The position numbers and the translations under genes are program-made. Shown here in pieces: positions 2,650 to 61,110 of a DNA stretch of 64,000 nucleotides. Every line of letters starts with the position of its first letter. Position 1 is the stretch's first letter. The notes beneath the pieces were generated by a model, which worked only from the letters and a program-made list of their open reading frames with translations, searched no databases and was not told the origin of the DNA. The DNA is from Candidatus Krumholzibacteriota bacterium (GTDB taxonomy: Bacteria > Krumholzibacteriota > Krumholzibacteriia > Krumholzibacteriales > Krumholzibacteriaceae): NCBI GenBank assembly GCA_030609325.1, contig JAUWCL010000001.1:2208-66207 (forward strand), in the 5' to 3' direction.

Positions 2650-3270
2650 ATGTCAGTGAGGAAGATGAGCCTTGTCGCAGCCGTTATGCTTATAGTGGGC
2701 GCCGCCGTAATGGTCGGCTGTGACAGCAAGCCGGACAATTACACTACACGGACCATCGTTTACGTCAGTTATATAAACGACGGGTTGCCCTACATGTGCG
2801 ACGTGCTCTTCCAGGGAGATTCCCTCTTCTACGAGGATACTGTCATTTACAAGCTCGAGGACGACTTCATAACCGAGGACCGCGTAAAGGTGTTAATCCA
2901 CAACAGGCCGTACAACGGCCTGATCGATCCCGGGCTGTCACTGTGTGATTTCCTCGTTACGGGATATACCGTAGAGTTCGTGCCGACCGACGGCGGCTCC
3001 GTTCCTGCACGAAGCTTCACGGGCAACACGAGCGTCCTCATCCCCGCCAACGAGATGGTCGAGTTTTGGATCGTGCTCGTGCCCTTCGACGCGAAGACGA
3101 TCGATCCCCTGCTGTCGATGCAGTACACGAACCAGGAGATCTACACCAACGCGAGGATCAGGTTCACGGGCCACGAGGTCCAGACGACCAGGGAGATCAG
3201 CTTCGAGGCCGGACTCCATGTCAACTTCGGCGATCCTCTCATAACGAAAAGCAACAAGGATGATTTCTAG
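2650..3270 (+). CDS. Lipoprotein of unknown function
   Basis: Signal peptide with lipobox (LIVGAAVMVGC DSK). RBS AGGAGG 7 nt upstream of the ATG. An AT-richer 234-bp divergent intergenic region lies upstream. Confidence 0.6.
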   Translation: MSVRKMSLVAAVMLIVGAAVMVGCDSKPDNYTTRTIVYVSYINDGLPYMCDVLFQGDSLFYEDTVIYKLEDDFITEDRVKVLIHNRPYNGLIDPGLSLCDFLVTGYTVEFVPTDGGSVPARSFTGNTSVLIPANEMVEFWIVLVPFDAKTIDPLLSMQYTNQEIYTNARIRFTGHEVQTTREISFEAGLHVNFGDPLITKSNKDDF

Positions 3271-3368: not shown

Positions 3369-4478
3369 TCACAGCACAGGCTTCAGCAGTTCCTCTATCC
3401 CCTCTACTTCCATCTTCATATCCAGCCTCAGCAGCTTTTCCCCCTCCGGAAAGAGTGCCGCTACCTTGCTCCAGTCCTTTTCCGTCGTGACAAACACACT
3501 TCCGGTTTCGCTTTCTTCAATCATCTCCCCTATATCGTCGGCGGAATACTGGTAATGATCGTCATATCTGTAAGATACTTCGGGATCGAGTCCGAACTCC
3601 GCTGCAGTTTTCTCGAACGACTCCGGCCTTGCGATCCCGCTGAAAAGAACGACCTTCGCTCCTTCGAGATCGGAAGCCTCAAACCGGTCTCCCCCGCGTC
3701 CGGCGAGCGAGGCTGGCAGATGCCTCGCAAAGAAGACAGGCGTATCCTTCACGTACCGGGCGACTTCCTCCGGGACAGAGCGGTCGTTCGCCCTTGTAAA
3801 GATCACAGCGCCGGCCCTCGATACGGCCGATTCCGGCTCCCGGAGCGTCCCGTACGGCAGCAGCCTTCCGTCAGCGAAGGGCCTCCCGGCGTCGAGGAGA
3901 AGGATGTCGAGATCCTTCGGCAGCGTGGTCCTGTGATATGCGTCGTCGAGGATCACATGTGTCGGGCCGGCGACCTCCGAGACGGTCCCGATCCCTCTCT
4001 TCCTGTCCCTGTCCACCGCCAGCGGCAGTCCGGCCCTGATGTAGAGTACGGCCTCGTCGCCCAGTTCCCGCGCGGCCGCCGTTTCTTCGCCGCCCGTCCA
4101 CATGACATATCCAGCGGGAAGTCCGGGGCCTCCATCCGCTGCCCCGGGCAGTGAAAGAGCGCCTCCTTCGCGAGTCGACCGTCCGCCGTACCCACCAGTG
4201 ACGACTGCGGGCCTCAGTCCTCTTTCCATGAGCGCGGATGCGATCGCCAGGACGCACGGCGTCTTGCCGCCGCCGCCGACCTCGATGTTTCCCACCGATA
4301 TTATCTTCGGTCCTGCTGTGGTTGCGTGTGAAGCCGGCGCCGGAGTCATACGGGCATGCAGTCCATAGAAGACGGAAAGGGCGAAGCGGAGCGGACCGAG
4401 CAGGGACCATCCATCCCTTCCCATGAACATCCGCATACGTCTCGTATAGCGTTCAACTATCCTCATGCGGCCAGACAT
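3369..4478 (-). CDS. lpxK: Tetraacyldisaccharide 4'-kinase
   Basis: P-loop VGNIEVGGGGKTP characteristic of LpxK. Sits in the lpx cluster. The N-terminus may be somewhat shorter than the ORF. Confidence 0.85.
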   Translation of the reverse strand: MSGRMRIVERYTRRMRMFMGRDGWSLLGPLRFALSVFYGLHARMTPAPASHATTAGPKIISVGNIEVGGGGKTPCVLAIASALMERGLRPAVVTGGYGGRSTREGGALSLPGAADGGPGLPAGYVMWTGGEETAAARELGDEAVLYIRAGLPLAVDRDRKRGIGTVSEVAGPTHVILDDAYHRTTLPKDLDILLLDAGRPFADGRLLPYGTLREPESAVSRAGAVIFTRANDRSVPEEVARYVKDTPVFFARHLPASLAGRGGDRFEASDLEGAKVVLFSGIARPESFEKTAAEFGLDPEVSYRYDDHYQYSADDIGEMIEESETGSVFVTTEKDWSKVAALFPEGEKLLRLDMKMEVEGIEELLKPVL

Positions 4479-5157
4479 CCTCGCCGGTATAACCCATGTC
4501 CCTGTCGAGACGGGATGTCAACTCGCCCAGTCTCGTTTCGAGCTCGACCCTGAAGCGCTCCCTCTCCTCCTCCCCGGTCCCTGCCGGTACGATGAGGGGC
4601 TCGCCGTACTCGACTATCACCTTCGCGAACGGAGCGGGAAACTGGAACCTGTCCCATGAACGGAGGATCTTTCTCCCACTCGCCGTATCCGAGATGGGCA
4701 CAACGGCGGACGCTGCGAGACGGCTGAGCTCCGTCGCCCCCTGCTGCACCCTGCCTCGCGGTCCCTTCGGGCCGTCGACCGCCAATCCGATATCATAGCC
4801 TTCGGCCAGGACTCCCCTGAGCTCCCGCAGCGCCCTCGCTCCACCTCGCGTCGTCGAGCCTTTGAGATGCCCGAACCCGAGCCACTCGATCGTCCTCCCC
4901 ATCAGGTCACCGTCGTAGTGCTCGGATGCGAGCACGTGAATCTTCCCTCCCCGGTTCGACCAGCTGAGCACAAGCAGCCTCCCGTGCCAGAATGCGAATA
5001 TCACCCTCTCTGTCATCTTTCGTGCCCTGTCGAGATGCTCGCCGCCCCTTATCTCAATTCGCCAGGTGACGCCGAGGATCCTGATCAGCACGGAGGCGAA
5101 AAAGCTCGTTACTTTTGCGTTCAGTCTGATCTTCATCTGTGGTCGGACCTTCCTCAT
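4453..5157 (-). CDS. DUF374-like / lysophospholipid-acyltransferase-superfamily protein. The start is likely MRKVRPQMK at about 5157.
   Basis: The ORF-track N-terminus overlaps lpxB and is Arg/Gly-rich. The downstream part (FAFWHGRLL..., ~230 aa) resembles DUF374 proteins that accompany lpxK/waaA. The start is uncertain. Confidence 0.5.
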   Translation of the reverse strand: MRKVRPQMKIRLNAKVTSFFASVLIRILGVTWRIEIRGGEHLDRARKMTERVIFAFWHGRLLVLSWSNRGGKIHVLASEHYDGDLMGRTIEWLGFGHLKGSTTRGGARALRELRGVLAEGYDIGLAVDGPKGPRGRVQQGATELSRLAASAVVPISDTASGRKILRSWDRFQFPAPFAKVIVEYGEPLIVPAGTGEEERERFRVELETRLGELTSRLDRDMGYTGEDVWPHEDS

Positions 5158-6269
5158 TCTCCGGCCATCGCCAGAGCTCTCTCCGCTAGATGGTCCATCC
5201 CGCCTTCCCGGCGGAGCGAATCTCTCAGATAGAGTAGCCGTCCCGAGATCTCCCCGTACCGCTTCCCGTCTCCCAGTATCGAATCGGCCTCGGCCGCTAT
5301 CCTGCCGGGAACGGCATCCTCCTGGATCAACTCGGGGACGACCATATCTGCAGCAAGCACGTTGGGCATTGCTATCCACGGGATAGTCACCATCATTCTC
5401 GCCAGGAGATAGGTCAGTCTCGAGGTCCTGTATACGACGACCATCGGTGTGCCCGACATCGCCGTCTGAAGGGTCACGGTACCGGACGACGCGATAACCA
5501 GGCCCGCCCCGGTCAGCTCTTCCGTACCGTTCCTCGTGACGGTCGTGTACTCTTTCATATCTTCCGGAATCGCGAGAATCCCGTCGTCTATCAGTGGAGC
5601 GGCCCCCAGCCGGAACCTGGCCTGCGGCCAGCTGTCCCGGAGCTTACGCGCCGCCTCGAGCATCGGACCGAGATGGTTCGCCACTTCCTGCTTCCTGCTG
5701 CCCGGAAAAAGCAGGATATCGAACGGCACGTCTCTGCCGGGCGCCTGCTTCGGGCCGTGCGGAACATCTATCTCCTCGAGCATCGGATGGCCGGTGAAAA
5801 AGACGGGGATCCCTCTCTTCCTGTAGTAATCGACCTCGAACGGAAGGATGACGGCCATCAGGTCGACGACCTTCTTCATCTTTCTCGTCCTCCATCCCGC
5901 CCACGCCCAGACCTGTGGACTTATGAAATAGAGAACGGGAACTCCCCTCTCTTTCGCCTTCGCTGCGATCCTCAGGTTCATTCCGGGATAATCGACGGGG
6001 ATGTAGAGACCGATTTCACCGCCGGCGAGCAGTTCGCCGAGTTTCCGTTCGAGCCGCCTTATCCTCGGCAGGCCGGAGACGATCTCCGAGAATCCCATGA
6101 AGGCGTAATCCTCGATCGAGAATCTCACGTCGGCGCCTGCCGCGGCCATCGCCTCTCCTCCCATGGCGATGAAACTCGTTCCGGGCGCCCTGGCCCTTAT
6201 CGCAGTAATCAGCGTGGCGGCGTGTTGATCGCCGCTCGTCTCGCCGCAGGTTATCAGGATCGTCTTCAT
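5154..6269 (-). CDS. lpxB: Lipid-A-disaccharide synthase
   Basis: 371 aa with N-terminal ILITCGETSGDQHAA, a glycosyltransferase family 19 signature. Confidence 0.9.
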   Translation of the reverse strand: MKTILITCGETSGDQHAATLITAIRARAPGTSFIAMGGEAMAAAGADVRFSIEDYAFMGFSEIVSGLPRIRRLERKLGELLAGGEIGLYIPVDYPGMNLRIAAKAKERGVPVLYFISPQVWAWAGWRTRKMKKVVDLMAVILPFEVDYYRKRGIPVFFTGHPMLEEIDVPHGPKQAPGRDVPFDILLFPGSRKQEVANHLGPMLEAARKLRDSWPQARFRLGAAPLIDDGILAIPEDMKEYTTVTRNGTEELTGAGLVIASSGTVTLQTAMSGTPMVVVYRTSRLTYLLARMMVTIPWIAMPNVLAADMVVPELIQEDAVPGRIAAEADSILGDGKRYGEISGRLLYLRDSLRREGGMDHLAERALAMAGE

Positions 6270-7243
6270 CCGCCGGGGCGGTCCTTCCTGAGCTGCTCGA
6301 GGATCATCTCGGCAATTTCGAGGGCATTCAGTGCCTGCTCCCCGGTCACAACCGGCTCGTGCATCCCCTGCGCCGCCTCGATGAACGAATAGATCTCCTT
6401 CATGAGAGGCTCGCCGTCATCGACCACCGCGCCGATCGGTCTGATGAAAGCCATCGGATCGGAGGCCAGCTCCTCCACGGACACGTCCGTCGCCTTACCG
6501 AACGCTTCGACCGACCGTGCCCTCAGATCGGCCGTCACGTAGAGGTTCTCCTCGAAGAAACGCATCTTCCTCAGCGGATCACGCGACACCCTGCTGGCCG
6601 TCAGGTTGGCTACGCACCCTCCCTCGAACTCGAGACGCGCGTTGACGATGTCGGGAGAGCCGGTAAGCACTCCGGCCCCCGACGCGCGGAGCTCGACAAT
6701 ACGGTCGCCCTTGAGCAGTGACAGGACTATATCGATATCATGGATCATCAGATCGACGACCACCGAGACATCCGTCCCTCTCGGTGTAAAGGTGCCGAGC
6801 CTGTGGCACTCTATGAACATCGGATTCCGAACGAGGCCGGCCGCTGCCTCGAAAGCGCCGTTGAACCTCTCTATATGGCCGACCTGCAGCACGAGCCCCG
6901 CCTTCGCCGCCGCATCCACCATCTCCCTGCCCTCCGCCGAGCTCGCAGCAAGCGGCTTCTCGACCAGGACGTGGACTCCCTCGGCGAAGGCCTCCAGCGC
7001 GATCGGATGATGAACAGTGGCCGGCGTGCAGATGCTCACCACATCGCATTTTCCAAGCAGCTCGGAGGTACTGCCGCATACCAGCGCGCCCCACTGCTTC
7101 GCAGTCTCTTCCGCCTTCGCGCCGTCGGAATCCTGAAGAAAAACCTCGTCGACATCCTGCGACGATGCATAGATCCTCGCATGGTGATTACCGAGACTTC
7201 CGGTACCGATAACTCCGGCTTTTAATCCCCGGGACTCGCCCAT
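6266..7243 (-). CDS. Gfo/Idh/MocA-family NAD(P)-dependent oxidoreductase embedded in the lpx cluster (GnnA-like candidate)
   Basis: Rossmann motif GVIGTGSLGNHHARIY and an EKP motif (VLVEKPLA). Lies between lpxA and lpxB, with 4-nt overlaps on both sides. Confidence 0.8.
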   Translation of the reverse strand: MGESRGLKAGVIGTGSLGNHHARIYASSQDVDEVFLQDSDGAKAEETAKQWGALVCGSTSELLGKCDVVSICTPATVHHPIALEAFAEGVHVLVEKPLAASSAEGREMVDAAAKAGLVLQVGHIERFNGAFEAAAGLVRNPMFIECHRLGTFTPRGTDVSVVVDLMIHDIDIVLSLLKGDRIVELRASGAGVLTGSPDIVNARLEFEGGCVANLTASRVSRDPLRKMRFFEENLYVTADLRARSVEAFGKATDVSVEELASDPMAFIRPIGAVVDDGEPLMKEIYSFIEAAQGMHEPVVTGEQALNALEIAEMILEQLRKDRPGG

Positions 7244-7274
7244 AATGCACCCCGCTTTTCGATGTATGTGATGA

Positions 7275-8051
7275 TCAGAGAGTTATTCCACGCTGCGACC
7301 CACGTATGAAATCAAGGAGCGTGTCGATCTCCGGGCTCGACTCGATCTCGATCTCCATCCGCTCGAGCGCCTGGGATACGTTCAACCCGCTCCTGTAGAT
7401 CAGCCTGTACGCGGCCCTGATCCGATCGAGCTGGGAATCATCGAATCCCCTCCGCTTCAGGCCGACCGTGTTCAGGCCCGAGACCTTCGGGGGAGTTCCG
7501 GCGACCTTGACGAACGGCAGCACGTCCTTCGCTACACGGCTCCCTCCCCCTACGAAGGAGTGGGCGCCGATCCTTACGAACTGGTGAACCGGTACGATAC
7601 CGCCTATTATCGCGTAATCGTACACCGAAACGTGCCCGGCAAGATTGACCGCGTTGGCAAGTATGACGTTGTCGCCGATGGCACAGTCGTGAGCGACATG
7701 GGAATAGGCCATCAGCAGGCAGCCGCTTCCGACTACGGTCGAGTCTCCCTCGTTGGTAGCCGCGTTTACCGTCACGTATTCCCTGATCGTATTGTTGTCG
7801 CCGATCCTGGTGAAGGTCCTTGCCCCGCGGTACTTCAGGTCCTGCGGCGGGGTACCCAACGCGGCCCCGTGAAAGATCGTGTTCCCGGCGCCGAGGGTCG
7901 TATATCCGTCGATCAGGACGTTGCTCCCAACGACCGTCCCGTTTTCTATCTTCACATTCGGTCCAATGATCGAATACGGCCCCACACGGACATCCTCGCC
8001 CAGCTCCGCCCCCTCATGCACTATCGCTGCTCCGTGTACCTCGGTCGACAT
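7275..8051 (-). CDS. lpxA: Acyl-ACP--UDP-N-acetylglucosamine O-acyltransferase
   Basis: 258 aa with left-handed beta-helix hexapeptide repeats and the typical LpxA C-terminal helical domain. Confidence 0.9.
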   Translation of the reverse strand: MSTEVHGAAIVHEGAELGEDVRVGPYSIIGPNVKIENGTVVGSNVLIDGYTTLGAGNTIFHGAALGTPPQDLKYRGARTFTRIGDNNTIREYVTVNAATNEGDSTVVGSGCLLMAYSHVAHDCAIGDNVILANAVNLAGHVSVYDYAIIGGIVPVHQFVRIGAHSFVGGGSRVAKDVLPFVKVAGTPPKVSGLNTVGLKRRGFDDSQLDRIRAAYRLIYRSGLNVSQALERMEIEIESSPEIDTLLDFIRGSQRGITL

Positions 8052-8061
8052 CGTTCCTCCG

Positions 8062-9396
8062 TTATCTCTTCACTATGGTGGACGAAAGATCCGCCTCGGC
8101 CACGACGCTGCCGTCGACAAAGGCTTTGCCCCTCATCTTGCAGAACTTCCTCTTCAGCGAGAGCATCTCGAGCTCGAATCTCAGCTGGTCTCCGGGAAGG
8201 ACCGGCTTGCGGAACTTCGCCCTGTCGATCTTTACGAAGTATACCAGATAATTCTCCGGATTGTTCACGCTGGAGAGAAGCAGTATCCCCCCGACCTGAG
8301 CCATCGCCTCGATGATGAGGACCGCAGGCATAATCGGGTGTCCGGGGAAGTGCCCGATGAAGAAGGGCTCGTTTATCGTCACGTTCTTGATCCCGACCAC
8401 CCTCTTACGGTCCTCGAGCTCGATTATCCTGTCGACGAGGAGGAAGGGATACCTGTGGGGCATTATGTCCATGATCGTGCTGATATCCCATTGCCCGGCG
8501 CCGGGCCCAAAGGCGAATCGCTGCTTGTTCTTGAGGTCCTGCGCGAGGAGCTTCGCAAAGGGCAGGTTATAATTATGTCCCGACCTGACCGCGATGATAT
8601 GCCCCTCGATCGGAGCCCCCGCAAGGGTAAGATCGCCCATGATGTCGAGTATCTTATGCCTTACGAATTCGTCGGGGAACCGGAGCGGGGCCTCGTTCAT
8701 GATCCCGTTCTTGTCGACAACAACGGCGTTGTCCAGGCTGCCACCCTTTATGAGCCCCTCCTTGCGGAGCATCTCGACATCCGACATCAGGGCGAAGGTC
8801 CTCGAAGGGGCGATCTCCGAGACGAATGTCCCGGGATCGATATCGAGGGAGAAGTACTGTGTACCGATGAACTCGCTTTCGTATTCGATCGTGTAGCTCA
8901 CCCTGAATCCCTCGTAGGGCAGGGCCATCAATTCGACTTTGTCCTTGTAATACGAGACCGGCGTGGTGATCTTGAGGTATTGTATCGGAACGCCCTGGTT
9001 CTCGGTGCCGGCGGCCTTTATCGATTCGACGAGTTCCATCACGCTGCCGTCGGCGGGCTCGGGCGGCTCGTCGGCGTCGATGTCGATTACGAGATTGTCC
9101 ACCTGCATGCCCGATGCGGCGGCGAGGATGTGCTCAACTGTATGGATCTGGGCGCCGTCCCTCATCAGCGTGGTATTTCTCTTCACCTCTCCCGGATCGA
9201 TATACTCCGCCCTCGCGGGAATTTCAACGACCGGGTCGAGATCGATACGCCGGAATACGATCCCTGTCCCGACGGGTGCCGGCTTGAACACGGTACGGAC
9301 CTTCGCCCCCGTATGTATGCCGATACCCTCGAATGTAAACTGATTCTTAATCGTCCTCTGCTGACGGACCACTTCCCTTTCCTTTCTCCAGAGCAT
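8062..9396 (-). CDS. lpxC-fabZ: Bifunctional UDP-3-O-acyl-GlcNAc deacetylase / 3-hydroxyacyl-ACP dehydratase (LpxC-FabZ fusion)
   Basis: The N-terminal ~290 aa is LpxC-like ([14 protein letters not shown]..., HKxLD). The C-terminal ~150 aa is a FabZ hotdog domain ([14 protein letters not shown]..., [13 protein letters not shown]). The probable ATG is at 9396 (MLWRKE...); the ORF-track extension upstream is artefactual. It overlaps the lpxD 3' end by about 46 nt. Confidence 0.85.
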
Positions 9397-10420
9397 CCAA
9401 CCTGTTCTGCAGGTTGCGGAATTCCTTGAGGAGATCGGGCAGGCGTGCGGTAGCCGCACAGATCTTGCGGGCAAACGAATGTTCACGGGCGGGATATCCC
9501 GAAACGCTGGTTCCGGCCGGGATGCTCTTGGTGACGCCTCCCTGGGCGCCCACCCTCGCTCCGTCGCCGATCTTGATATGGCCGACAAGCCCTGCCTGTC
9601 CCGCCAGAACCACGTTCTTTCCCAGCTCGGTGCTGCCGGAGACCCCAACCTGGGCCGCGACCACCGAGTTTTCACCGATTACGACGTTATGAGCTATCTG
9701 CACGAGGTTATCCAGCTTCGAACCGCGCCCGATCAGTGTTACTCCCATCGTGGCCCTGTCGATCGTAGTATTGGCGCCGATCTCCACGTTTTCCTCGATC
9801 TTTACGATCCCGATCTGCGGTATCTTGTGATGTTCTTCCCCGTCCCTCGCGTATCCGAATCCATCACTCCCTATCACCGCACCCGAATGGATTATCACCA
9901 TGTTCCCGACCTCGCACTTCTCCCTGATCGTCACGTGGGGATAGATAAGGCAGTCGCTCCCGATCTTCACTCCCTCGTTAACGCACGCGAGAGGGAGGAT
10001 CGTTGTCCGGTCGCCGATGCTGACGTTCTCCTCGAGGACGACGTATGCCCCGATCGATATCTCCTTGCCGAGCTTCACGCTGTCAGCGATTATCGCGGTG
10101 GGGTGCACCTCGCGGCTGTACTTCTCGATCGGGCTCTCGGCGAAGAGCCTCACGACCTTGAGAAAGGCCAGATAAGGATTGTCGATACTGATGATGACCC
10201 CGCTGAAGCTGCCGTTTCCGCCCGCGGTGATCACGGCCGATGCGTTTGTCGACACGAGGTACGACTCGTACTTCGGATTCGCGAGAAACGTGATCTCGCC
10301 GGTGACGGCCTCCTTGATGCCGGCGACTCCCCGGATCTCTATAGATCCATCGCCGACGACCTCACCGCCGACTATCCCGGCGATCTCTGCTATACTGTAG
10401 GAAGGCATCTGCTGTACCAC
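9347..10420 (-). CDS. lpxD: UDP-3-O-acylglucosamine N-acyltransferase
   Basis: 357 aa with hexapeptide repeats and the N-terminal LpxD domain. The C-terminal coiled tail is present. Confidence 0.9.
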
Positions 10421-10522: not shown

Positions 10523-11059
10523 CTACTGTGTAGTCTCCATTTGCGCTTCAAGACGCGCTATGATCATGTCGGTGACATCTATCTCTTTGTCCGCATAGAC
10601 GATCACACCCTGGGAAGAGTCGAGAACGAGCGTAAACCCCTCTTCTTCGGCTACCTTCTCGATGATGCCGTTGATCTTCTCGACGATGGGCTCGGTGAGT
10701 TCCTTGTTCCGCCTGGCAGCCTCGCCTGTCTCCCCGAAGATATCATGCATGTACTTCTGGTAATCCTTTATCTTCTGGTCGTAGACGAGCTTCTTTTCCT
10801 CGAGCTTCTCAGCACTGAGCATAAGGCTCTGGCTCTGGATCTCTTCACTCATCCGGGCCAGCTCGGCCTCCATCTCCTCGGCCTGCTTTTTCCAGGCCTC
10901 GACCTCTTTCTTGTAGACCTCCTCGGCCTCGATCGTCTCCTTGAAATTTGCGAATATCTTGACCGTATCGATATAACCGATCTTTACCTCCGCCGCCGCC
11001 GGAACGGCCGCAGCAGTCACCATGCAGAGTGCCAGGACGATCATTGTGAGCTTTCTCAT
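10523..11059 (-). CDS. skp: Periplasmic chaperone Skp/OmpH
   Basis: The true start MRKLTMIVLAL... (ATG at 11059) has GGAGG 7 nt upstream and a signal peptide. The rest is a coiled-coil-rich, 178-aa Skp-like sequence. The ORF-track N-terminal 197 aa is a stop-free artefact. Confidence 0.8.
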   Translation of the reverse strand: MRKLTMIVLALCMVTAAAVPAAAEVKIGYIDTVKIFANFKETIEAEEVYKKEVEAWKKQAEEMEAELARMSEEIQSQSLMLSAEKLEEKKLVYDQKIKDYQKYMHDIFGETGEAARRNKELTEPIVEKINGIIEKVAEEEGFTLVLDSSQGVIVYADKEIDVTDMIIARLEAQMETTQ

Positions 11060-11130
11060 ATCATACCTCCTTCTATCCCGTTTCGAATTTCCTGGAAAAT
11101 AAAAGACCTCTCTCATGACGTAAACCTTTT

Positions 11131-13377
11131 TTAAAAGAAAGTGCCGAAGGTGAAATGGGGCTCCCATGCCGGGCCGCCGATCTTGTCGAATCCGTATCCG
11201 TAGTCGAATCCGAGGTTGCCCATGCCGGGCATCTCGATCCTGATACCTATGCCCAGCCCCCGTCTCATATTGTAGATGTTCGCCTCGGTCATCGAGTTCC
11301 ACGCGTTTCCTACGTCGTAGAAGACGAGGCCCCAGACCATCTGCGAGAAGGGGAAAACGAGCTCCTGCGAAATCCTGGTCATAAACGTTCCGCCTACGAA
11401 CGGATTGTTCCCCTCGGGCACGACCTCGTAGAAATCGTATCCCCTCAGAGGGAACCGCCTGTTTCCGCCGAGACGGTACTTCTCGTAATCCTCCACCTGC
11501 ACGCCGCCGTAGCCGTGGATGCCGGCGCCGTCGAGAGCCAGGTGGAAAGTCAGCTTCCAGAAGAGGAGCTTGAACCAGGAAATCGACGCGCTGTTCCTTA
11601 TGAACTGGACGTTGCCCCCGAAGATCCCGCCGGCCAGCTCGGTATTCCACGTGATGATCGAGCCTCTTGTCGGATGGAAGGGACTATCGGTCGAGTTCCT
11701 CACGATGCTCAGCGTCACGGTGCTTTTATTCAGCGGCCAGTCTACCCTCCTCAGCGATCCACTCTTCGGGTAGGACTGGTCGAAATCCGAGAGGTTCACC
11801 CTCTCGAACCTGTACCCGAGGAAGAACCTCGTGTAGTCGAGCATCGGCAGCTGACGCCCGCTGCGTATCGAGAATCCGGTCCTCGTATCCTTGTAGTACT
11901 GCTGGCTGACCCTGTTCTGCACCCAGTCGAACACATTGAGCGTCAAGGACCATTTCGTGTCGAAGAAATACGGTTCGGTGTACCTGAGGTTGAGGTTCTT
12001 GCGGTACCTGCCGAACTCCCAGTCAAACCCGACCGTTTTTCCGCGGCCGAGGAAGTTGTTCTCCTGCATGCCTAGAAAACCGGTCAGCCTGTTGAGCTGC
12101 GAGAATCCGAAACCGGCCCTGAAGCTCCCCGTCTGCTTCTCCTCGACTTCGATCAGCAGGTTGATGTCGCCCTCGTCACCGACCGGTTCGGTGTCTATCT
12201 TCGGCGGTCCGTTGAAATACCCCAGCTGGAATATCTCGCGGATGCTGCGCTGGATATCCTGCAGTATGAACCTGTCGCCCGGATAGACATCGAGCTCGCG
12301 GCGTATGATGTTCTCGAATGTCTTCGTGTTGCCCGTGATCTTGATCTCGTGTATCGAGGCGGGCTGGTTCTCGACGATCTCGAGGTCGAGATCTATCATC
12401 CTCCGCCGTTTCGTCCGGGTAGGGATGACGCGGCTCCAGATGTAGCCGTTCTCCCAGTAGACTGAGTTGATGCCCATGTTGGTCATCTCCATGGCGTGCA
12501 TGGAGAAGGGATCGCCCTCGACGAGCATGATCAGATCCTCTATCTCCTCGTCTTCGATCTCCTCGTTCCCGTCCCAGGTGATGTCGCCGACGTAGTATCG
12601 GTTCCCCTCTTGGATCCTTATGTAGATGTCCACCCGACGGCCCTCCTGGACCGTCTCGATATGATCGACAGTCACCCTGGCGTCGAGATACCCGTCGTCG
12701 CGGTAGAGGACAAGGATCTTTTCGAGGTCCTCCTCGAGCACCTTGGGCTTGTAGTCCCCTCCCCTGAACCACGAGTCGGGCTTGCTCTCCATCAGGCCGA
12801 AGAGGTCCTTCGAACTGAACACCCCGTTGCCGAGAATGTCGATGTGGCGGATCTTGACCTTCTCGCCCTCGTCGATCCTGTATGTCACGTAGATCTTGTG
12901 TTCTTCCCTCGAAGGGACCCTGTCGACCTCTATCCTCGCCCCGTTGTATCCTTTCTCGGCATAGAGGTCCCTTATGGCGGTGATGTCCCTCGTTATCATC
13001 GCCGGGCGGGCGAAATACCCCTCTCGGATGGAGATCTTGGCCCTTATGTCGTTTTCCTTTATCTTGCGGTTCCCCTTCACGCCCACCGACTTGACCCTCG
13101 GGTACTCCTCGACTACGATCGTCAGAACGGCTTTCCCGCCCTCCTCGTAGTAATACGCCTGTACGTCGGAGAAGTCCTTCGTCCTCACCAGCCGCTTGAT
13201 CCCCTGGGAGATCTTCTCCGCTACGAATGTGTCTCCGGCCTTCACGCCGAGGATCGATTGGATCTTCGTATCGGTCACAAACACGTTGCCCTCGACATCG
13301 ACCCTGTCGACCTCGATCGAGAGGGCCTGCGAGGAGGCCGCAAGTATGATAAACAGTGCAGTAAAAAGCGTTTTCAT
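11131..13377 (-). CDS. bamA: Outer membrane protein assembly factor BamA
   Basis: 748 aa with a signal peptide, repeated POTRA modules and a C-terminal Omp85 beta-barrel ending in an aromatic residue (F). Confidence 0.9.
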   Translation of the reverse strand: MKTLFTALFIILAASSQALSIEVDRVDVEGNVFVTDTKIQSILGVKAGDTFVAEKISQGIKRLVRTKDFSDVQAYYYEEGGKAVLTIVVEEYPRVKSVGVKGNRKIKENDIRAKISIREGYFARPAMITRDITAIRDLYAEKGYNGARIEVDRVPSREEHKIYVTYRIDEGEKVKIRHIDILGNGVFSSKDLFGLMESKPDSWFRGGDYKPKVLEEDLEKILVLYRDDGYLDARVTVDHIETVQEGRRVDIYIRIQEGNRYYVGDITWDGNEEIEDEEIEDLIMLVEGDPFSMHAMEMTNMGINSVYWENGYIWSRVIPTRTKRRRMIDLDLEIVENQPASIHEIKITGNTKTFENIIRRELDVYPGDRFILQDIQRSIREIFQLGYFNGPPKIDTEPVGDEGDINLLIEVEEKQTGSFRAGFGFSQLNRLTGFLGMQENNFLGRGKTVGFDWEFGRYRKNLNLRYTEPYFFDTKWSLTLNVFDWVQNRVSQQYYKDTRTGFSIRSGRQLPMLDYTRFFLGYRFERVNLSDFDQSYPKSGSLRRVDWPLNKSTVTLSIVRNSTDSPFHPTRGSIITWNTELAGGIFGGNVQFIRNSASISWFKLLFWKLTFHLALDGAGIHGYGGVQVEDYEKYRLGGNRRFPLRGYDFYEVVPEGNNPFVGGTFMTRISQELVFPFSQMVWGLVFYDVGNAWNSMTEANIYNMRRGLGIGIRIEMPGMGNLGFDYGYGFDKIGGPAWEPHFTFGTFF

Positions 13378-13639: not shown

Positions 13640-16108
13640 CTATTCCGCCTTGCACGAATCGACCTTCTTCTTATCAACTATGAAAAGAAGACCGTCCGAA
13701 GAGGGATTCGCGGTGATCTTCAGGGTATCGTTCCTGTTTATCTCCCCACCCAGCATTTTCTCGCTCAGCGGGTCCTCGAGCAGCTTCTGGATAGCCCTCT
13801 TGAGCGGCCTCGCGCCGAAGGCCGGATCGTAACCCTTGTCGATTATGAATCCCCTGGCTTCCACGGTGATCTCGAAATCGAGGTTCATCGCCCCGAGTCT
13901 GCTGTAGAGGTCCTTCAGAAGGATCTCGATGACCTCCATCAAATCGCTGCGGTCGAGCTGCCTGAAGACGATCAGCTCATCGATCCTGTTGGTGAATTCC
14001 GGGTTGAATATCTGCCTTGTGGCCTCCATGATCTTGCTCTTCATGTGATCGTAACCGGCGTCGGTGCCTCCGTCCTCGGAGACGAACCCCATACCCTTCT
14101 TTCCCTTCACTTCTTTGGCGCCGGCGTTCGAGGTCATGATGAGGACCGTGTTCCTGAAATCGACCCTGCGGCCGAACGAATCGGTCAGGCTGCCCTCCTC
14201 GAGGATCTGCAGAAGAAGGTTGAAGACATCGGGATGCGCCTTCTCTATCTCGTCGAGAAGCACCACGGAGTACGGCTTGCGCCTTACCTTCTCGGTAAGC
14301 TGCCCGCCCTCCTCGTAGCCGACGTATCCCGGAGGAGCGCCGATAAGCCTGGAGATAGCGAACTTCTCCATGTACTCCGACATGTCTATCTGGATGAGGG
14401 CGTCCTCGCTCTCGAACAGAGTGGCCGACAGCGTCCTGGCCAACTCAGTCTTGCCGACGCCCGTCGGGCCGAGGAACACGAACGAGCCTATAGGCCTTCG
14501 CGGATCGCGCAGGCCCGCCCTGTTGCGCCTTACGGCCCTGGCAACCGCCTGGAGGGCCGGCTCCTGGCCAACGACCCTCTTGCGCAGCTCGTCCTCGAGA
14601 TTGAGGAGTTTGACCGTCTCCTCCTGCTCGACGTCGGCTACGGGAATGCCGGTCATATCGGAGATCACGGTTGCAACGTCCTTCGCCGTGACAATCGATT
14701 CGCTCTCCTGCCTCGACTCGGTCCATTCCCTGTGCCTCTCCTTCAGAGCGGCGCGCAGCTCCTTCTCCTGGTCCCTGAACGAGGCGGCCTTCTCGAACTC
14801 CTGCGCCTGGATCGAGGACTCCTTCTCCTTGGATATCTCCTCGATCTGCCTCTCCATCTCCCTCAGCTCCTCAGGGATCGTGGTCACCGAGAGTCTCGCC
14901 CTCGCACCGGCCTCGTCTATCACGTCGATCGCCTTGTCGGGCAGGAAGCGCCCCTGTACGTACCTCTGCGAGAGATGCACGGCCTGGCTGATCGCGTCGT
15001 CGGTGAATTTCGTCCTGTGATGGGCCTCGTACTTGTCGCGCAGCCCGAGGATGATCAGGATCGTCTCGTCCTCGGTGGGCGGATTGATCATGATCGACTG
15101 GAACCTTCGTTCGAGTGCGCCGTCCTTCTCTATGTGCTTGCGGTACTCATCGAGCGTGGTCGCCCCGACGCACTGTATCTCGCCCCTCGAGAGAGCCGGT
15201 TTGAGCATATTCGAGGCGTCTATCGCCCCCTCCGCTCCTCCGGCACCAACGATCGTGTGTATCTCGTCGATGAAGATTATTATCTGTTCGTTTTCGTGGA
15301 TCTCGGCGATGATATTCTTAAGACGTTCCTCGAACTGTCCTCTGTACTTGGTTCCTGCTACAACTGATGCGAGATCGAGTGTTGTTATCCTTTTGTCCTT
15401 GAGAAGCTCGGGCACCTTGTTGGCGATGATCTTCTGGGCGAGGCCCTCTATGATAGCGGTCTTGCCCACGCCAGGCTCTCCTATGAGCACGGGGTTGTTC
15501 TTTTTTCTCCTGCAGAGTATCTGGATTATCCTGCCCATCTCCTTGTCCCTGCCTATGATCGGATCGAGCTTGTTGTCCCTGGCCAGCTGCGTGAGGTCCC
15601 GTCCGAACTGGTCCAGGGTCGGCGTTTCGCTCTTCGCCTGCTTTGCCCGGTCGGAGCCGCGTCCTGCGCCGCTCTGGTGGATCATCTTCATGATCTCCTC
15701 GCGGACCCTCTTGCGTTCGACGCCCAGCTCGAGCAGCACGCGTGCGGCGACTCCCTCGCCTTCCCGGATCAGCCCGAGAAGAAGGTGTTCGGTGCCGACG
15801 TAGTTGTGCCCGAGGAGCCTTGCTTCCTCGATCGAGAGCTCGAGCACCCGCTTGCCCCTGGGCGTCAGCGGCACCTCGCCCAGCGTCAGCGTATCGCCGC
15901 TGGGCCGGACGATGTTCTCTATCGCCTGCTGGATCTGGTCGAGGTCGAGATCGAGTTTCTGCAACACCCGCGCGGCAATCCCCTCGCCCTCGCGCACTAT
16001 GCCGAGCAGAAGGTGCTCCGTGCCTATATAATCGTGCTGCAGCCTGTTCGCCTCGTCCCGCGCGAGGTATATGACCTTTCTGACCCGCTCTGTGAACTTG
16101 TCGTTCAT
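13640..16108 (-). CDS. clpC: ATP-dependent Clp protease ATP-binding subunit ClpC
   Basis: 822 aa with a duplicated Clp N-domain, two AAA+ modules (GEPGVGKT, GPTGVGKT), a UVR-like linker and a ClpP-binding loop region. Confidence 0.9.
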   Translation of the reverse strand: MNDKFTERVRKVIYLARDEANRLQHDYIGTEHLLLGIVREGEGIAARVLQKLDLDLDQIQQAIENIVRPSGDTLTLGEVPLTPRGKRVLELSIEEARLLGHNYVGTEHLLLGLIREGEGVAARVLLELGVERKRVREEIMKMIHQSGAGRGSDRAKQAKSETPTLDQFGRDLTQLARDNKLDPIIGRDKEMGRIIQILCRRKKNNPVLIGEPGVGKTAIIEGLAQKIIANKVPELLKDKRITTLDLASVVAGTKYRGQFEERLKNIIAEIHENEQIIIFIDEIHTIVGAGGAEGAIDASNMLKPALSRGEIQCVGATTLDEYRKHIEKDGALERRFQSIMINPPTEDETILIILGLRDKYEAHHRTKFTDDAISQAVHLSQRYVQGRFLPDKAIDVIDEAGARARLSVTTIPEELREMERQIEEISKEKESSIQAQEFEKAASFRDQEKELRAALKERHREWTESRQESESIVTAKDVATVISDMTGIPVADVEQEETVKLLNLEDELRKRVVGQEPALQAVARAVRRNRAGLRDPRRPIGSFVFLGPTGVGKTELARTLSATLFESEDALIQIDMSEYMEKFAISRLIGAPPGYVGYEEGGQLTEKVRRKPYSVVLLDEIEKAHPDVFNLLLQILEEGSLTDSFGRRVDFRNTVLIMTSNAGAKEVKGKKGMGFVSEDGGTDAGYDHMKSKIMEATRQIFNPEFTNRIDELIVFRQLDRSDLMEVIEILLKDLYSRLGAMNLDFEITVEARGFIIDKGYDPAFGARPLKRAIQKLLEDPLSEKMLGGEINRNDTLKITANPSSDGLLFIVDKKKVDSCKAE

Positions 16109-16147
16109 GTGCCCCGGTCTTCCTTTCCCCAGGCGGACCCGGCGCCT

Positions 16148-17209
16148 TCAGGACGCCTTCAGCCTCGACCTGATGTAATCAGCTCTGCTCCTGTCCCTCT
16201 CGTCCGGTCCCATGACCTTTTCGTAGAGCATCTGGAGATGCATCGGCTGGATCATTATCAGTATCTCGTTGAGATCGGACAGCCCCGTGTCGGTGACGAT
16301 CCCGAGACCGACGCCGAGACGGACTGCCGAGATGAGCCCCATGGCTTCCCTGGAATCGAGCATCCTCGCGTTCTTCAGAATGCCGTAGGCCCTCCAGATC
16401 TTATCTTCGAGCAAACTCCGTGCCTCTTTGAGAAGGGTTTCACGTGCTTTCTTCTCGAATTCGAGCACTTTTCGTATATGCGAATCCATGTTTTTCACTG
16501 TATCCGACTCGGACAGTCCGAGGGTAATCAAGTTCGATATCTGGAAGAAATTACCCACCACCTCACTTCCTTCCCCATAACTACCCCTCACACTTAATCT
16601 TACGTGCCTGAGGCCGTCCGAGACCTGCCTGATGTCGCCGTTGTGGACCAGTCCCGGGAGGTGGACCATCGCCGAGACCCGCAGCCCGGTGCCGACATTG
16701 GTGGCGCAGGCAGTCAGATATCCGAACCGGTCGGAAAAGGCGAATTCGAGGCTTCCGTCGAGATCGTCGTCGAGACGGCTCACCCTGTCGAACGCCTCGC
16801 ACACCGCCAGTCCAGACTCGAAAGACTGGAGCCTGATGTGATCCTCCTCGTTTACCATAACGCTGAGTTTCTCGCCCCTTGCAACCGCCAGGCCGCGGTT
16901 GGTGAATCTCCTGACCATATCATGCGATATGAGCCTTCTCTCCGCGAGGATCATGCGCTCCGGCTCGGTCGTATCGTTCATGTCGAGGAATATCGAGCCC
17001 TTCATCGAGGGGGCAAGTGCAAGCGCGTCCCTTACCTCGTCGCGGACCAAGGTAAGTTCGGATGCCTCCGCGCAGTAAGTAAACTTCCTTCCATCGATGT
17101 TGCGGGCAAGCCTCACGCGTGTGGCGAAGACAAGCTCGCTCTCCTCACCTCCCTCGGCCAGCCAGGACGCGGGGTTCTTGAGAAGCCTCTGCAGCTGCTT
17201 CTGTTTCAA
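16148..17209 (-). CDS. mcsB: Protein-arginine kinase McsB
   Basis: Aligns along its length to B. subtilis McsB (ASWLAEGGEESELVFATRVRLARN vs SSWMKQKGPESDIVLSSRIRLARN; NEEDHIRLQ; CATNVGTGLR phosphagen-kinase motif). The TTG start overlaps the mcsA stop (TTGA at 17206-17209). Confidence 0.85.
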   Translation of the reverse strand: MKQKQLQRLLKNPASWLAEGGEESELVFATRVRLARNIDGRKFTYCAEASELTLVRDEVRDALALAPSMKGSIFLDMNDTTEPERMILAERRLISHDMVRRFTNRGLAVARGEKLSVMVNEEDHIRLQSFESGLAVCEAFDRVSRLDDDLDGSLEFAFSDRFGYLTACATNVGTGLRVSAMVHLPGLVHNGDIRQVSDGLRHVRLSVRGSYGEGSEVVGNFFQISNLITLGLSESDTVKNMDSHIRKVLEFEKKARETLLKEARSLLEDKIWRAYGILKNARMLDSREAMGLISAVRLGVGLGIVTDTGLSDLNEILIMIQPMHLQMLYEKVMGPDERDRSRADYIRSRLKAS

Positions 17210-17709
17210 CGCTTTTCCATCCCCTTCTTCAGATCGGCGATCTCGTCCCTGAGCCGGGCGGCCCTCTCGTAGTTCTCCAGCTCCACGGAGATTCTCAGCT
17301 CGTCCTCGAGGGCGCGTATCCTGCGTCTCGCGTGGACCTTCTCGGTGCAGTACCTGCGCGGAGACTTTCCGAGGTGCCTGGCGTTCCCGTGTATCCTCTT
17401 CAGGACCTTCGCGATTTCCTCCCCGAACGAATCGTAGCATTTCGAGCATCCCAGGCCGGCGGACTTGCTGAATGCCGCGTACGTCCTCCCGCAGTGCTCG
17501 CACCTCCTTCTCGCCCCCCCCTTCTCCGGCAGGGCACTGCTGACCAGCCCGGCGAGGAGGTCGGTCTTCTCGAAATTGCTCCTCTTCAGGTAATCGAAGC
17601 CCTTTGCCTCGGCGCAGGACCGGCATATGTGGATCTTCACGACCTTGTTTCCATCGACGTTGGTGAAATGTATAGTCGCGTTATTCTTCTTGCAGAACTG
17701 GCAGATCAT
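17206..17709 (-). CDS. mcsA: McsA, activator of protein-arginine kinase (zinc-finger / UVR domain protein)
   Basis: Paired CxxC zinc ribbons (CQFCKK...CRSC; CEHCGR...CSKC) followed by a UVR-like helix (RIRALEDELRISVELENYERAARLRDEIADLK). Confidence 0.75.
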   Translation of the reverse strand: MICQFCKKNNATIHFTNVDGNKVVKIHICRSCAEAKGFDYLKRSNFEKTDLLAGLVSSALPEKGGARRRCEHCGRTYAAFSKSAGLGCSKCYDSFGEEIAKVLKRIHGNARHLGKSPRRYCTEKVHARRRIRALEDELRISVELENYERAARLRDEIADLKKGMEKR

Positions 17710-18395
17710 ATCTTCATCACCGCCACCGACTTGAGTTTGCCTCCCTCCAGCACGAAGCAGCGATCGGCCTTATCGAGGAGCTCCCTCTTGTGCGTCACCA
17801 CGACGAACATCTGGTCCTTCGACCGGCTCAGCTCGAGCATCAGGTCATGAAGAATTTCGCTGTTGGCCTCGTCGAGATTCCCGGACGGTTCGTCGGCAAG
17901 TACGATTGCCGGATCGTTCATCAGGGCCCTGGCTACCGCGACCCTCTGCTGCTCTCCGCCCGACAGCTCGGCGGGCCTGTGCGTGAGCCTCTCGGCGAGG
18001 CCGACCTCCGCTAGGAGCCCGGCTGCCCTCTCCTCCGCACCGTGCTCGGTGCCGCTCCTGAGGAGGGCGGGCATCATGACGTTTTCCAGGGCGTCAAACT
18101 CGGGGAGAAGATAGTGAAACTGGAATACGAACCCGAGGTCCCTGTTCCTTATCGCGTTGAGTTCCCTGTCGGGCACGACGAACGGGTTTTTCCCGCGGAT
18201 CAGCACTCGGCCGCTGTCAGGGGTATCGAGTGTGCCGAGCACGTGCAGGAGGGTCGATTTGCCCGCGCCGGAGGCACCGAGTATCGCTACTACCTCTCCC
18301 CCTTTGGCCTCGAAATCGATCCCCCTGAGAACCTCGATATTTCCCTTGCGGCTCGTGAAGCTCTTCGTCACATTTTCGGCGCTGAGAATACTCAT
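17706..18395 (-). CDS. lolD: Lipoprotein-releasing ABC transporter ATP-binding protein LolD
   Basis: Walker A GASGAGKST, ABC signature LSGGEQQRVAVARAL, and Walker B LADEPSGNLD. Confidence 0.8.
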   Translation of the reverse strand: MSILSAENVTKSFTSRKGNIEVLRGIDFEAKGGEVVAILGASGAGKSTLLHVLGTLDTPDSGRVLIRGKNPFVVPDRELNAIRNRDLGFVFQFHYLLPEFDALENVMMPALLRSGTEHGAEERAAGLLAEVGLAERLTHRPAELSGGEQQRVAVARALMNDPAIVLADEPSGNLDEANSEILHDLMLELSRSKDQMFVVVTHKRELLDKADRCFVLEGGKLKSVAVMKI

Positions 18396-22316: not shown

Positions 22317-22327
22317 CCTCTCCTGCA

Positions 22328-47575: not shown

Positions 47576-47591
47576 TTGTCCCGATTACTCT

Positions 47592-48833: not shown

Positions 48834-48887
48834 TTTATCCCCCTGATCTCAGGATAGTTTCTATTCTGTCCGGTCAGCCGGCGCCGG

Positions 48888-49127
48888 CTACTCGGCCACG
48901 TGCGCCTTGATGTAATCTATGGCTTCGCCGACCTTGGTGATCTTCTCCGCCTCTTCGTCGGGGATTTCGACCCCGAACTCCTCCTCGAGAGCCATCACGA
49001 GTTCGACGGTATCGAGAGAGTCGGCCCCGAGATCGTCTATGAAAGACGCCTCCAGCGTAATCTGGTCCTGGTTTACGGAAAGCTGGTCCTCTACAACCTT
49101 CTTTACTCTTTCCTCTACTGTACTCAT
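48888..49127 (-). CDS. acpP: Acyl carrier protein
   Basis: [21 protein letters not shown] phosphopantetheine attachment site. The true start is [10 protein letters not shown]. Confidence 0.9.
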
Positions 49128-49159
49128 ATTCCCGATTACCTCCTTGTTTTGTTTCCCCG

Positions 49160-60204: not shown

Positions 60205-61110
60205 TCATCCGGGTGGTTTCGTCTTCCATCGCCGGTGAGCCCAGAAATAATGATCGGGGTTGTCCCTGATCACATTCTCCAGTTCCTTCATCAGCGCGGC
60301 AGTCAGACGGAATATCTCTCCCTTACTCTCCGCGCCGGTATCAGCCCGCATGGCCGGTTTAAACCACGCATCATGGGTCTCGTCCTCCCGCCTCACGATG
60401 CTGGCGAATATCATCGGGCATCCGATCTTCCAGACGAACTGCGCCGCCCCGGGATGACTCGAAGAGGGAATGCCGAAGAAATCGACGAATATCCCCGACT
60501 TCCTCGCGTCCTGATCGGACAGGATCGCCACCGCCCTGCTCTTCTTCAGCGAACGGAACACCCCCCTGACGGCGATCCCCTTCGCGATGAGCCCGATGCC
60601 CACAGACCTCCTCAGGTCGTTCATGTAATCGTCCACGAGACTGTTTGTCTGCTCGCCAACGATGAAATCGACAGGAATACCATGTGCGGCACCGGACGCG
60701 CCGAGCAGCTCCCAGCTCCCGAAGTGGCCCGTTACCAAGATCAATCCCTTTCCTTCGGCCAGGGCCGCATCGACGTGCTCCATGCCGTGGATTCTCACCA
60801 GCTCCCGCAGCCTGTCGGTGCTCAGGCGCCGCATGGAAGCGAACTCGACCATCGACTTGGCGAAATTAACGTAGGAACGTCTTCCGATCCGAACCCTGTC
60901 CGCCTTCCCGATAGTATCGCCGAACGCTCTCTCGAGATTGTCGAGGGTCACGCGGCGCCTGACCCTGACGGCGTCGAAGGCGAACGCCCCGACGAGTCCG
61001 CCTGCCTTGATCGACCATCTGTATGGAAGAACCATCGGCAGCCAGCTGAGCAGCTTTACCCCGAAGAGCTCAAGCCTGTGTCTGAATCTTTTCCATCCCG
61101 TTGCGGGCAT
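60205..61110 (-). CDS. lpxL: Lipid A biosynthesis (Kdo2-lipid IVA) acyltransferase, LpxL/HtrB family
   Basis: 301 aa with an N-terminal TM helix and the LPLAT HX4D-type motif region (LVTGHFGSWE). Confidence 0.7.
   Translation of the reverse strand: MPATGWKRFRHRLELFGVKLLSWLPMVLPYRWSIKAGGLVGAFAFDAVRVRRRVTLDNLERAFGDTIGKADRVRIGRRSYVNFAKSMVEFASMRRLSTDRLRELVRIHGMEHVDAALAEGKGLILVTGHFGSWELLGASGAAHGIPVDFIVGEQTNSLVDDYMNDLRRSVGIGLIAKGIAVRGVFRSLKKSRAVAILSDQDARKSGIFVDFFGIPSSSHPGAAQFVWKIGCPMIFASIVRREDETHDAWFKPAMRADTGAESKGEIFRLTAALMKELENVIRDNPDHYFWAHRRWKTKPPG

What the first reader, a model, noticed from the sequence alone, without database searches (positions are those of the whole stretch)
6266..7243. 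GnnA-like Gfo/Idh/MocA oxidoreductase embedded between lpxA and lpxB; no lpxH/lpxI in the cluster
The lipid A cluster is lpxD / lpxC-fabZ / lpxA / Gfo-Idh-MocA / lpxB / DUF374-like / lpxK, with 4-nt overlaps around the oxidoreductase, which implies translational coupling. In Acidithiobacillus and Leptospira a Gfo/Idh/MocA enzyme (GnnA), together with a DegT-type aminotransferase (GnnB), converts UDP-GlcNAc to UDP-GlcNAc3N, giving amide-linked GlcN3N lipid A. A GnnA-like gene in this position suggests a non-canonical lipid A backbone. No gnnB and no UDP-2,3-diacylglucosamine hydrolase (lpxH, lpxI or lpxG) is present in the cluster. Either could be encoded elsewhere, or the neighbouring DUF374-like protein could supply a missing function.
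Basis: inference. Interest (0 to 1): 0.5.

Follow-up and report, generated by a model that had tools for sequence, protein, structure and literature searches.

The report
GnnA-type dehydrogenase in lipid A operon
The gene between lpxA and lpxB is a clear relative of GnnA, the enzyme that starts conversion of the lipid A sugar precursor to its 3-amino form, so this uncultured bacterium probably makes amide-linked lipid A; that is a known pathway in a new host.

Summary
On the minus strand the order is bamA, ompH, lpxD, lpxC-fabZ, lpxA, a 325-aa Gfo/Idh/MocA gene (6266-7243), lpxB, DUF374, lpxK. One detail needs correcting. Only the oxidoreductase/lpxB and lpxB/DUF374 junctions are 4-nt ATGA overlaps; lpxA and the oxidoreductase are separated by 31 nt.

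The protein's best solved relative, by sequence and by fold, is the characterised UDP-GlcNAc 3-dehydrogenase GnnA of Acidithiobacillus ferrooxidans. It is well separated from WlbA/WbpB. At least 598 relatives were found among species-representative genomes, and the 80 loci examined span more than 15 phyla. About half of those loci have lpxB directly downstream. A few have a 3-aminotransferase-type DegT (gnnB-like) next door.

No DegT, LpxH or LpxI is encoded anywhere in the 64 kb. The rest of the genome could not be searched, so a GlcN3N backbone is a well-founded prediction, not a demonstrated fact. DUF374 is the LpxJ late-acyltransferase family and is not a candidate for the missing hydrolase. 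Absence of lpxH from the cluster is ordinary.

Verdict: a new member of a known kind, in a Krumholzibacteriota genome. Interest is low to moderate.

The parts
6266..7243 (-). gnnA-like gene: a 325-aa Gfo/Idh/MocA NAD-dependent oxidoreductase, predicted UDP-GlcNAc 3-dehydrogenase
7275..8051 (-). lpxA, the acyl-ACP:UDP-GlcNAc (or UDP-GlcNAc3N) acyltransferase that would use the product of the GnnA/GnnB steps
   Evidence: NF003657 365 bits and TIGR01852 340 bits. It is the only lpxA in the window.
7244..7274 (-). 31-nt lpxA-gnnA spacer with an SD-like GGGG about 8 nt before the ATG
   Evidence: The spacer is 30-32 nt in five Krumholzibacteriota loci. No terminator was found beyond chance.
5154..6269 (-). 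lpxB, lipid-A-disaccharide synthase; its ATG overlaps the gnnA-like stop codon (ATGA)
   Evidence: TIGR00215 256 bits; junction read.
4453..5157 (-). DUF374 / LpxJ-family late acyltransferase; its ATG overlaps the lpxB stop codon (ATGA)
   Evidence: PF04028 E 8e-23; junction; gene call of 234 aa in L001; family function from PMC6148475.
3369..4430 (-). lpxK, tetraacyldisaccharide 4'-kinase
   Evidence: PF02606 and TIGR00682; 353-aa gene call in L001.
8062..9396 (-). lpxC-fabZ fusion
   Evidence: NF009667 522 bits; 444-aa gene call in L001.
9347..10420 (-). lpxD
   Evidence: NF002060 400 bits.
10523..13377 (-). ompH/skp (10523-11059) and bamA (11131-13377) at the head of the cluster
   Evidence: PF03938, POTRA and Omp85.
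60205..61110 (-). unlinked LpxL/LpxM-family late acyltransferase, part of the same pathway
   Evidence: PF03279 E 2.6e-48.

Best explanation
The gene at 6266-7243 is an orthologue of GnnA. The enzyme would bind NAD+ and oxidise the 3-hydroxyl of UDP-GlcNAc to UDP-3-keto-GlcNAc. A DegT-type aminotransferase (GnnB) encoded elsewhere in the genome would convert this to UDP-GlcNAc3N. The neighbouring LpxA would then N-acylate that sugar, and LpxC, LpxD, LpxB, LpxK, LpxJ and LpxL would carry it through the usual pathway. The result would be lipid A in which some or all 3-position acyl chains are amide-linked (a GlcN3N backbone). The gene is co-transcribed with lpxA and translationally coupled to lpxB. 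What is shown: family membership, fold, motif conservation and conserved synteny. What is inferred: the substrate, the existence of the aminotransferase partner, and the final lipid A chemistry.
Against: No DegT aminotransferase is encoded in the 64-kb window, nor within 10 kb in three other Krumholzibacteriota. Only 4 of 80 relatives have one within 10 kb. The protein scores below the cut-off of the only NCBIfam model for this activity (169 against 450 bits). The family motif GHIERFN differs from AfGnnA's GHIKRVH at two invariant positions. There are no biochemical or lipid A data for this phylum. LpxA substrate selectivity was not assessed.
Confidence: 0.7

Rival explanations
1. It is a UDP-GlcNAc 3-dehydrogenase, but its product feeds a different glycan, for example UDP-GlcNAc3NAc(A) for an O-antigen, capsule or S-layer glycan as in the archaeal pathway. 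Its place in the lpx operon would then be incidental.
For: The best NCBIfam hit is the archaeal UDP-GlcNAc 3-dehydrogenase. No gnnB is adjacent. In Bacteroidota, Ignavibacteria and Blastocatellia the orthologue is not linked to lpx genes.
Against: Direct adjacency to lpxA, lpxI or lpxB occurs in 41 of 70 loci across many phyla. Here the gene overlaps lpxB by ATGA. There are no glycosyltransferase, N-acetyltransferase or polysaccharide-export genes around it.
Confidence: 0.12
2. It is a lipid-A-associated oxidoreductase with a role other than feeding a transaminase. It might act on a later intermediate, or make a keto or epimerised sugar. That would explain why gnnB is usually not adjacent.
For: gnnB is absent from 76 of 80 neighbourhoods. 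Two family-invariant residues differ from AfGnnA.
Against: The family forms one group that includes AfGnnA and the members linked to gnnB. gnnA and gnnB are known to be unlinked in proven GlcN3N producers (PMC5644692). No such alternative chemistry is known for lipid A (my knowledge).
Confidence: 0.1
3. It is a WbpB/WlbA-type UDP-GlcNAcA 3-dehydrogenase of an O-antigen pathway (ManNAc3NAcA synthesis).
For: Same superfamily and the same C3 oxidation chemistry (PMC10622841).
Confidence: 0.03

Closest known systems
GnnA, UDP-N-acetylglucosamine 3-dehydrogenase of Acidithiobacillus ferrooxidans (PDB 7bvj/7bvk; pathway of Sweet, Ribeiro and Raetz 2004, cited in PMC8036547)
   Same: Same two-domain Gfo/Idh/MocA fold, about the same length and the same catalytic motifs. 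It is the best match by sequence and by structure. Both are associated with lipid A genes. Orthologues elsewhere are paired with a gnnB-like DegT.
   Different: Only 36% identical over 246 aa (31-32% in the full-length structural alignments). The motif is GHIERFN instead of GHIKRVH. No gnnB is adjacent; the gene stands alone between lpxA and lpxB and is translationally coupled to lpxB. The host is an uncultured FCB-group phylum for which no lipid A chemistry is known.
WbpB / WlbA, UDP-GlcNAcA 3-dehydrogenases of ManNAc3NAcA O-antigen synthesis
   Same: Same superfamily; C3 oxidation of a UDP-amino-sugar, followed by a DegT transamination.
Archaeal UDP-GlcNAc 3-dehydrogenase (NCBIfam NF040723)
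   Same: Same reaction. It aligns end to end (residues 7-315 against model positions 1-298) at E 1.3e-49.
   Different: The score of 169 bits is far below the 450-bit cut-off. The archaeal enzyme serves N-glycan or UDP-ManNAc3NAcA synthesis, not lipid A.
LpxJ (DUF374) late acyltransferases of Helicobacter, Campylobacter, Wolinella and Rickettsia
   Same: The neighbouring gene at 4453-5157 carries the PF04028 domain and lies between lpxB and lpxK, which fits a secondary acylation role.
   Different: Activity and acyl-chain position are untested here. It is not a pyrophosphatase and cannot stand in for LpxH, LpxI or LpxG.

Membership tests
GnnA (UDP-GlcNAc 3-dehydrogenase) | Gfo/Idh/MocA two-domain fold with an N-terminal Rossmann NAD-binding domain | tested here: met
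GnnA (UDP-GlcNAc 3-dehydrogenase) | Closest characterised relative is GnnA, clearly ahead of other Gfo/Idh/MocA enzymes | tested here: met
GnnA (UDP-GlcNAc 3-dehydrogenase) | Cofactor and catalytic motifs: GxGxxG, an acidic residue after beta-2, the EKP lysine, D-x3-H | tested here: met
   G13/G15/G18, D38, E95-K96-P97 and D164...H168 are invariant in the family and present in AfGnnA.
GnnA (UDP-GlcNAc 3-dehydrogenase) | Genomic association with lipid A biosynthesis genes | tested here: met
   The gene lies between lpxA and lpxB here. Of relatives with enough flanking sequence, 37 of 75 have lpxB downstream and 29 of 74 have lpxA or lpxI upstream.
GnnA (UDP-GlcNAc 3-dehydrogenase) | A partner DegT-type 3-aminotransferase (GnnB) in the same genome | tested here: inconclusive
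   Absent from the 64-kb window and from 20-kb neighbourhoods in three Krumholzibacteriota. Present next to orthologues in L022, L028, L047 and L051. A GnnB profile search returned, among the hits that carry a source name, almost only Endomicrobia/Elusimicrobiota and Gammaproteobacteria, and none from Krumholzibacteriota.
GnnA (UDP-GlcNAc 3-dehydrogenase) | NAD+-dependent oxidation of the 3-OH of UDP-GlcNAc in vitro | not testable with these tools
   Needs an enzyme assay.
GnnA (UDP-GlcNAc 3-dehydrogenase) | GlcN3N present in the organism's lipid A | not testable with these tools
   Needs mass spectrometry or chemical analysis; the lineage is uncultured.
WbpB/WlbA (UDP-GlcNAcA 3-dehydrogenase) | Close sequence or structure similarity to WbpB/WlbA, and a wbpA/E/D/I-type gene context | tested here: not met
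NCBIfam NF040723 (archaeal UDP-GlcNAc 3-dehydrogenase equivalog) | Score above the curated 450-bit cut-off | tested here: not met
   169 bits.
LpxJ / DUF374 (neighbouring gene 4453-5157) | PF04028 domain | tested here: met
   E 8e-23, 80 bits against a 26.8-bit cut-off. The family was equated with LpxJ in PMC6148475.
LpxH / LpxI / LpxG (UDP-2,3-diacylglucosamine hydrolases) | A homologue encoded in the cluster or the window | tested here: not met
   No tblastn hit for LpxI from related loci. No metallophosphoesterase or DUF1009 among the scanned ORFs. LpxH and LpxG were not searched with their own profiles.

The most novel reading that the evidence does not exclude
gnnA is a vertically inherited core gene of the lipid A operon across many mostly uncultured phyla: Krumholzibacteriota, Eisenbacteria, Zixibacteria, Gemmatimonadota, Hydrogenedentota, Nitrospirota, Acidobacteriota, Omnitrophota and others. 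It is almost always annotated only as 'Gfo/Idh/MocA oxidoreductase'. On this reading, amide-linked GlcN3N lipid A would be the common, possibly ancestral, state in a large part of the diderm tree and not a scattered oddity. The aminotransferase partner would usually be unlinked and still unidentified.
Probability: 0.3. Interest if true: 0.5.

Novelty: new member of a known kind. Interest (0 to 1): 0.25.

Why it matters
If the prediction is right, Krumholzibacteriota and many other uncultured diderm phyla build lipid A on a 2,3-diamino-glucose backbone. Amide-linked acyl chains resist de-O-acylation, make the LpxA step thermodynamically favourable, and in known cases lower TLR4 activation and raise resistance to antimicrobial peptides (PMC8036547). 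In practice, the family could be annotated as GnnA-like instead of as a generic oxidoreductase. The wide distribution also points to a gap: the partner aminotransferase is rarely adjacent and has not been identified in these lineages. For this single locus the finding adds an expected member to a pathway described in 2004.

Tried and rejected
(1) I looked for gnnB in the window. Pfam scans of about 50 ORFs and tblastn with four gnnA-adjacent DegT proteins found nothing.

(2) I looked for a Krumholzibacteriota GnnB with a four-sequence DegT profile against the large protein collection. The top 120 hits that carry a source name are almost all Endomicrobia/Elusimicrobiota and Gammaproteobacteria, with none from Krumholzibacteriota. 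The question stays open.

(3) I tried to read Sweet et al. 2004, Robins et al. 2009 (LpxA selectivity) and Thoden and Holden 2011. None is held. LpxA selectivity for UDP-GlcNAc3N was therefore not assessed.

(4) My first synteny pass used greedy longest-ORF calling. It missed genes in high-GC loci because of antisense ORFs, so I replaced it with tblastn mapping.

(5) I first estimated about 45% identity to AfGnnA by eye. BLASTP gives 36%.

(6) I considered whether the oxidoreductase could replace LpxH or LpxI, for example by NAD-dependent elimination chemistry as in GH4/GH109. I rejected this because C3 of the substrate is acylated and because lpxI co-occurs directly beside the gene in 10 loci.

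(7) The promoter and terminator scan of the cluster found nothing above chance.

Full report
**What is in the sequence**

The window has about 59% G+C, and most of its genes are on the minus strand. Pfam and NCBIfam scans identify a contiguous minus-strand cluster:

- bamA, 11131-13377
- ompH/skp, 10523-11059
- lpxD, 9347-10420
- an lpxC-fabZ fusion, 8062-9396 (NF009667, 522 bits)
- lpxA, 7275-8051
- the 325-aa Gfo/Idh/MocA ORF, 6266-7243
- lpxB, 5154-6269
- a DUF374 protein, 4453-5157
- lpxK, 3369-4430

The junctions were read directly. The oxidoreductase stop and the lpxB start overlap as ATGA. The lpxB stop and the DUF374 start also overlap as ATGA. The phrase '4-nt overlaps around the oxidoreductase' holds only on the downstream side. 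No terminator-like site above chance lies inside the cluster.

**Origin**

The exact protein is encoded on a 58.9-kb Logan contig and in MAG GCA_030609705.1. The closest named homologues, at 57-89% identity, are from Candidatus Krumholzibacteria/Krumholzibacteriota MAGs. Three more distant Krumholzibacteriota genomes (57-62% identity) keep the same lpxA, oxidoreductase, lpxB, DUF374, lpxK order; two of them also keep the upstream mcsB-clpC-bamA-ompH-lpxD-lpxC/fabZ block. The spacer before the oxidoreductase is about 31 nt in all of them.

**What the protein is**

- **Sequence.** Against all PDB sequences the best hit is 7bvj (E 1.2e-44, 156 bits). The next hit scores 73 bits, and the WlbA entries 3q2i and 3q2k score only 38-40 bits.
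- **Identity of the top hit.** The structure libraries label 7bvj/7bvk as UDP-N-acetylglucosamine 3-dehydrogenase GnnA from Acidithiobacillus ferrooxidans.
- **Identity level.** BLASTP identity to residues 4-245 of AfGnnA is 36%.
- **NCBIfam.** The best match is the archaeal UDP-GlcNAc 3-dehydrogenase, which catalyses the same reaction. It aligns end to end, but at 169 bits it is below the 450-bit cut-off.
- **Motifs.** The Rossmann GxGxxG, D38, the E95-K96-P97 motif and D164-x3-H168 are invariant in the family and shared with AfGnnA. AfGnnA keeps 31 of the 39 family-invariant positions it covers. The main difference is GHIERFN against GHIKRVH.

**The family and its neighbours**

The 80 best loci come from more than 15 phyla, including Eisenbacteria, Zixibacteria, Gemmatimonadota, Hydrogenedentota, Nitrospirota, Acidobacteriota, Omnitrophota, Bacteroidota, Ignavibacteria, Atribacterota and Elusimicrobiota. 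I mapped neighbours by tblastn:

| Neighbour | Loci with it | Loci with enough flanking sequence |
|---|---|---|
| lpxB directly downstream | 37 | 75 |
| lpxA or lpxI directly upstream | 29 | 74 |
| Adjacent to at least one of these | 41 | 70 |

Ten loci, from Nitrospirota, Acidobacteriota, Verrucomicrobiota and others, have lpxI directly upstream of the gene, most of them in the full order lpxA-lpxI-gnnA(-lpxB). The oxidoreductase therefore coexists with a UDP-diacylglucosamine hydrolase and does not replace it.

Only four loci have a DegT aminotransferase within 10 kb: two Atribacterota, one Endomicrobium, and a gammaproteobacterial MAG with the order gnnA-gnnB-lpxB. The best solved relatives of that gammaproteobacterial DegT include the sugar 3-aminotransferase WbpE at 348 bits. 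This fits a GnnB role.

A rough neighbour-joining tree largely follows taxonomy. The DegT-linked members and AfGnnA are scattered within it, and the window protein sits in an FCB-group clade. This looks like one orthologous family.

**What is missing**

No DegT is encoded anywhere in the 64 kb; the best tblastn E-value is 0.096. There is no LpxI, no second lpxA and no waaA. None of the roughly 50 ORFs scanned is a metallophosphoesterase. I could not search the rest of the genome. A GnnB profile search of the large protein collection returned no hit named as Krumholzibacteriota.

[quoted passage not shown] It also shows that about 44% identity to AfGnnA is accepted as a putative gnnA in a proven GlcN3N producer (PMC8036547). 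The absence of gnnB from the cluster therefore weakens the inference but does not refute it. From my own knowledge, the E. coli lpxD-fabZ-lpxA-lpxB cluster also lacks lpxH, so the absence of lpxH here is ordinary.

**The DUF374 neighbour**

PF04028/DUF374 is the LpxJ family of late (secondary) lipid A acyltransferases. Members have been characterised in Helicobacter, Campylobacter, Wolinella and Rickettsia (PMC6148475). It is an acyltransferase, not a pyrophosphatase. A second late acyltransferase, of the LpxL/LpxM family, lies at 60205-61110.

**Most likely mechanism**

- **Shown:** the gene is a GnnA-family NAD-dependent dehydrogenase embedded in the lipid A operon and translationally coupled to lpxB.
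- **Inferred:** it oxidises UDP-GlcNAc at C3. An unlinked DegT aminates the 3-keto sugar to UDP-GlcNAc3N. LpxA N-acylates it, and the pathway proceeds to lipid A with amide-linked chains at the 3 and/or 3' positions. Whether the backbone is all GlcN3N, hybrid or mixed depends on LpxA selectivity, which I did not test.

I put this at about 0.7. The rivals are a UDP-GlcNAc 3-dehydrogenase serving another glycan (0.12), a lipid-A-linked redox role without amination (0.10), and a WbpB/WlbA-type enzyme (0.03).

**Verdict**

The GnnA reading is supported. The DUF374 speculation is not. This is a new member of a known kind of system, in an uncultured phylum.

The one wider point is that this GnnA-type gene is a very common, mostly vertically inherited component of lipid A operons in many little-studied phyla. 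It is generically annotated, and its aminotransferase partner is usually not adjacent. That suggests GlcN3N lipid A may be more widespread than the literature I could search reflects.

Noticed in passing
window 21215-22334 (-), frameshift site at about 22238-22252: prfB (release factor 2) carries the classic programmed +1 frameshift signal: an SD-like AGGAG, then TAT CTT TGA C. The ORF list shows only the 338-aa downstream frame (PCRF + RF-1 domains).
   Followed up: partly
window 13640-17626 (-); also L084 and L086: An McsA(UVR)/McsB (arginine kinase)/ClpC module, best known from Firmicutes, sits directly upstream of bamA in this diderm. It is conserved there in other Krumholzibacteriota.
   Followed up: partly
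window 60205-61110 (-): An LpxL/LpxM-family late acyltransferase (PF03279, E 2.6e-48) lies about 55 kb from the lpx cluster. The genome therefore has both LpxJ-type and LpxL-type secondary acyltransferases.
   Followed up: no
window 3369-5157 (-), compared with L006, L007, L013, L014, L020, L038, L083: waaA (Kdo transferase) lies between DUF374 and lpxK in Eisenbacteria, Zixibacteria and Nitrospirota relatives. It is absent from that position, and from the whole window, in Krumholzibacteriota.
   Followed up: partly
L065, L070, L074, L080 (about 190-aa ORF directly downstream of gnnA): In Calditrichota, Latescibacterota and Cytophagia loci a small multi-pass membrane protein of about 190 aa is inserted right after gnnA; in L070 and L080 lpxB follows it directly. 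By eye it resembles the ICMT/PEMT methyltransferase family. It was not annotated with any tool.
   Followed up: no
window 56226-57581 (-), 41393-42172 (-), 27963-28652 (-), 2650-3270 (+): Four sizeable ORFs have no Pfam match. The 206-aa one at 2650-3270 looks like a lipoprotein. A hypothetical gene of similar size (179-206 aa) on the opposite strand lies close to lpxK in four of the five related loci checked.
   Followed up: no
window 46820-53738 (-): A standard fatty-acid synthesis cluster: yceD, plsX, fabH, fabD, fabG, fabF, then rnc. bamD lies at 26258-27073 and lolD at 17706-18395; the adjacent 18455-19714 ORF is probably lolC/E (not scanned).
   Followed up: no
window 9347-9396 (-): The lpxD 3' end and the called lpxC-fabZ start overlap by about 50 nt. 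The true lpxC-fabZ start codon was not resolved.
   Followed up: no
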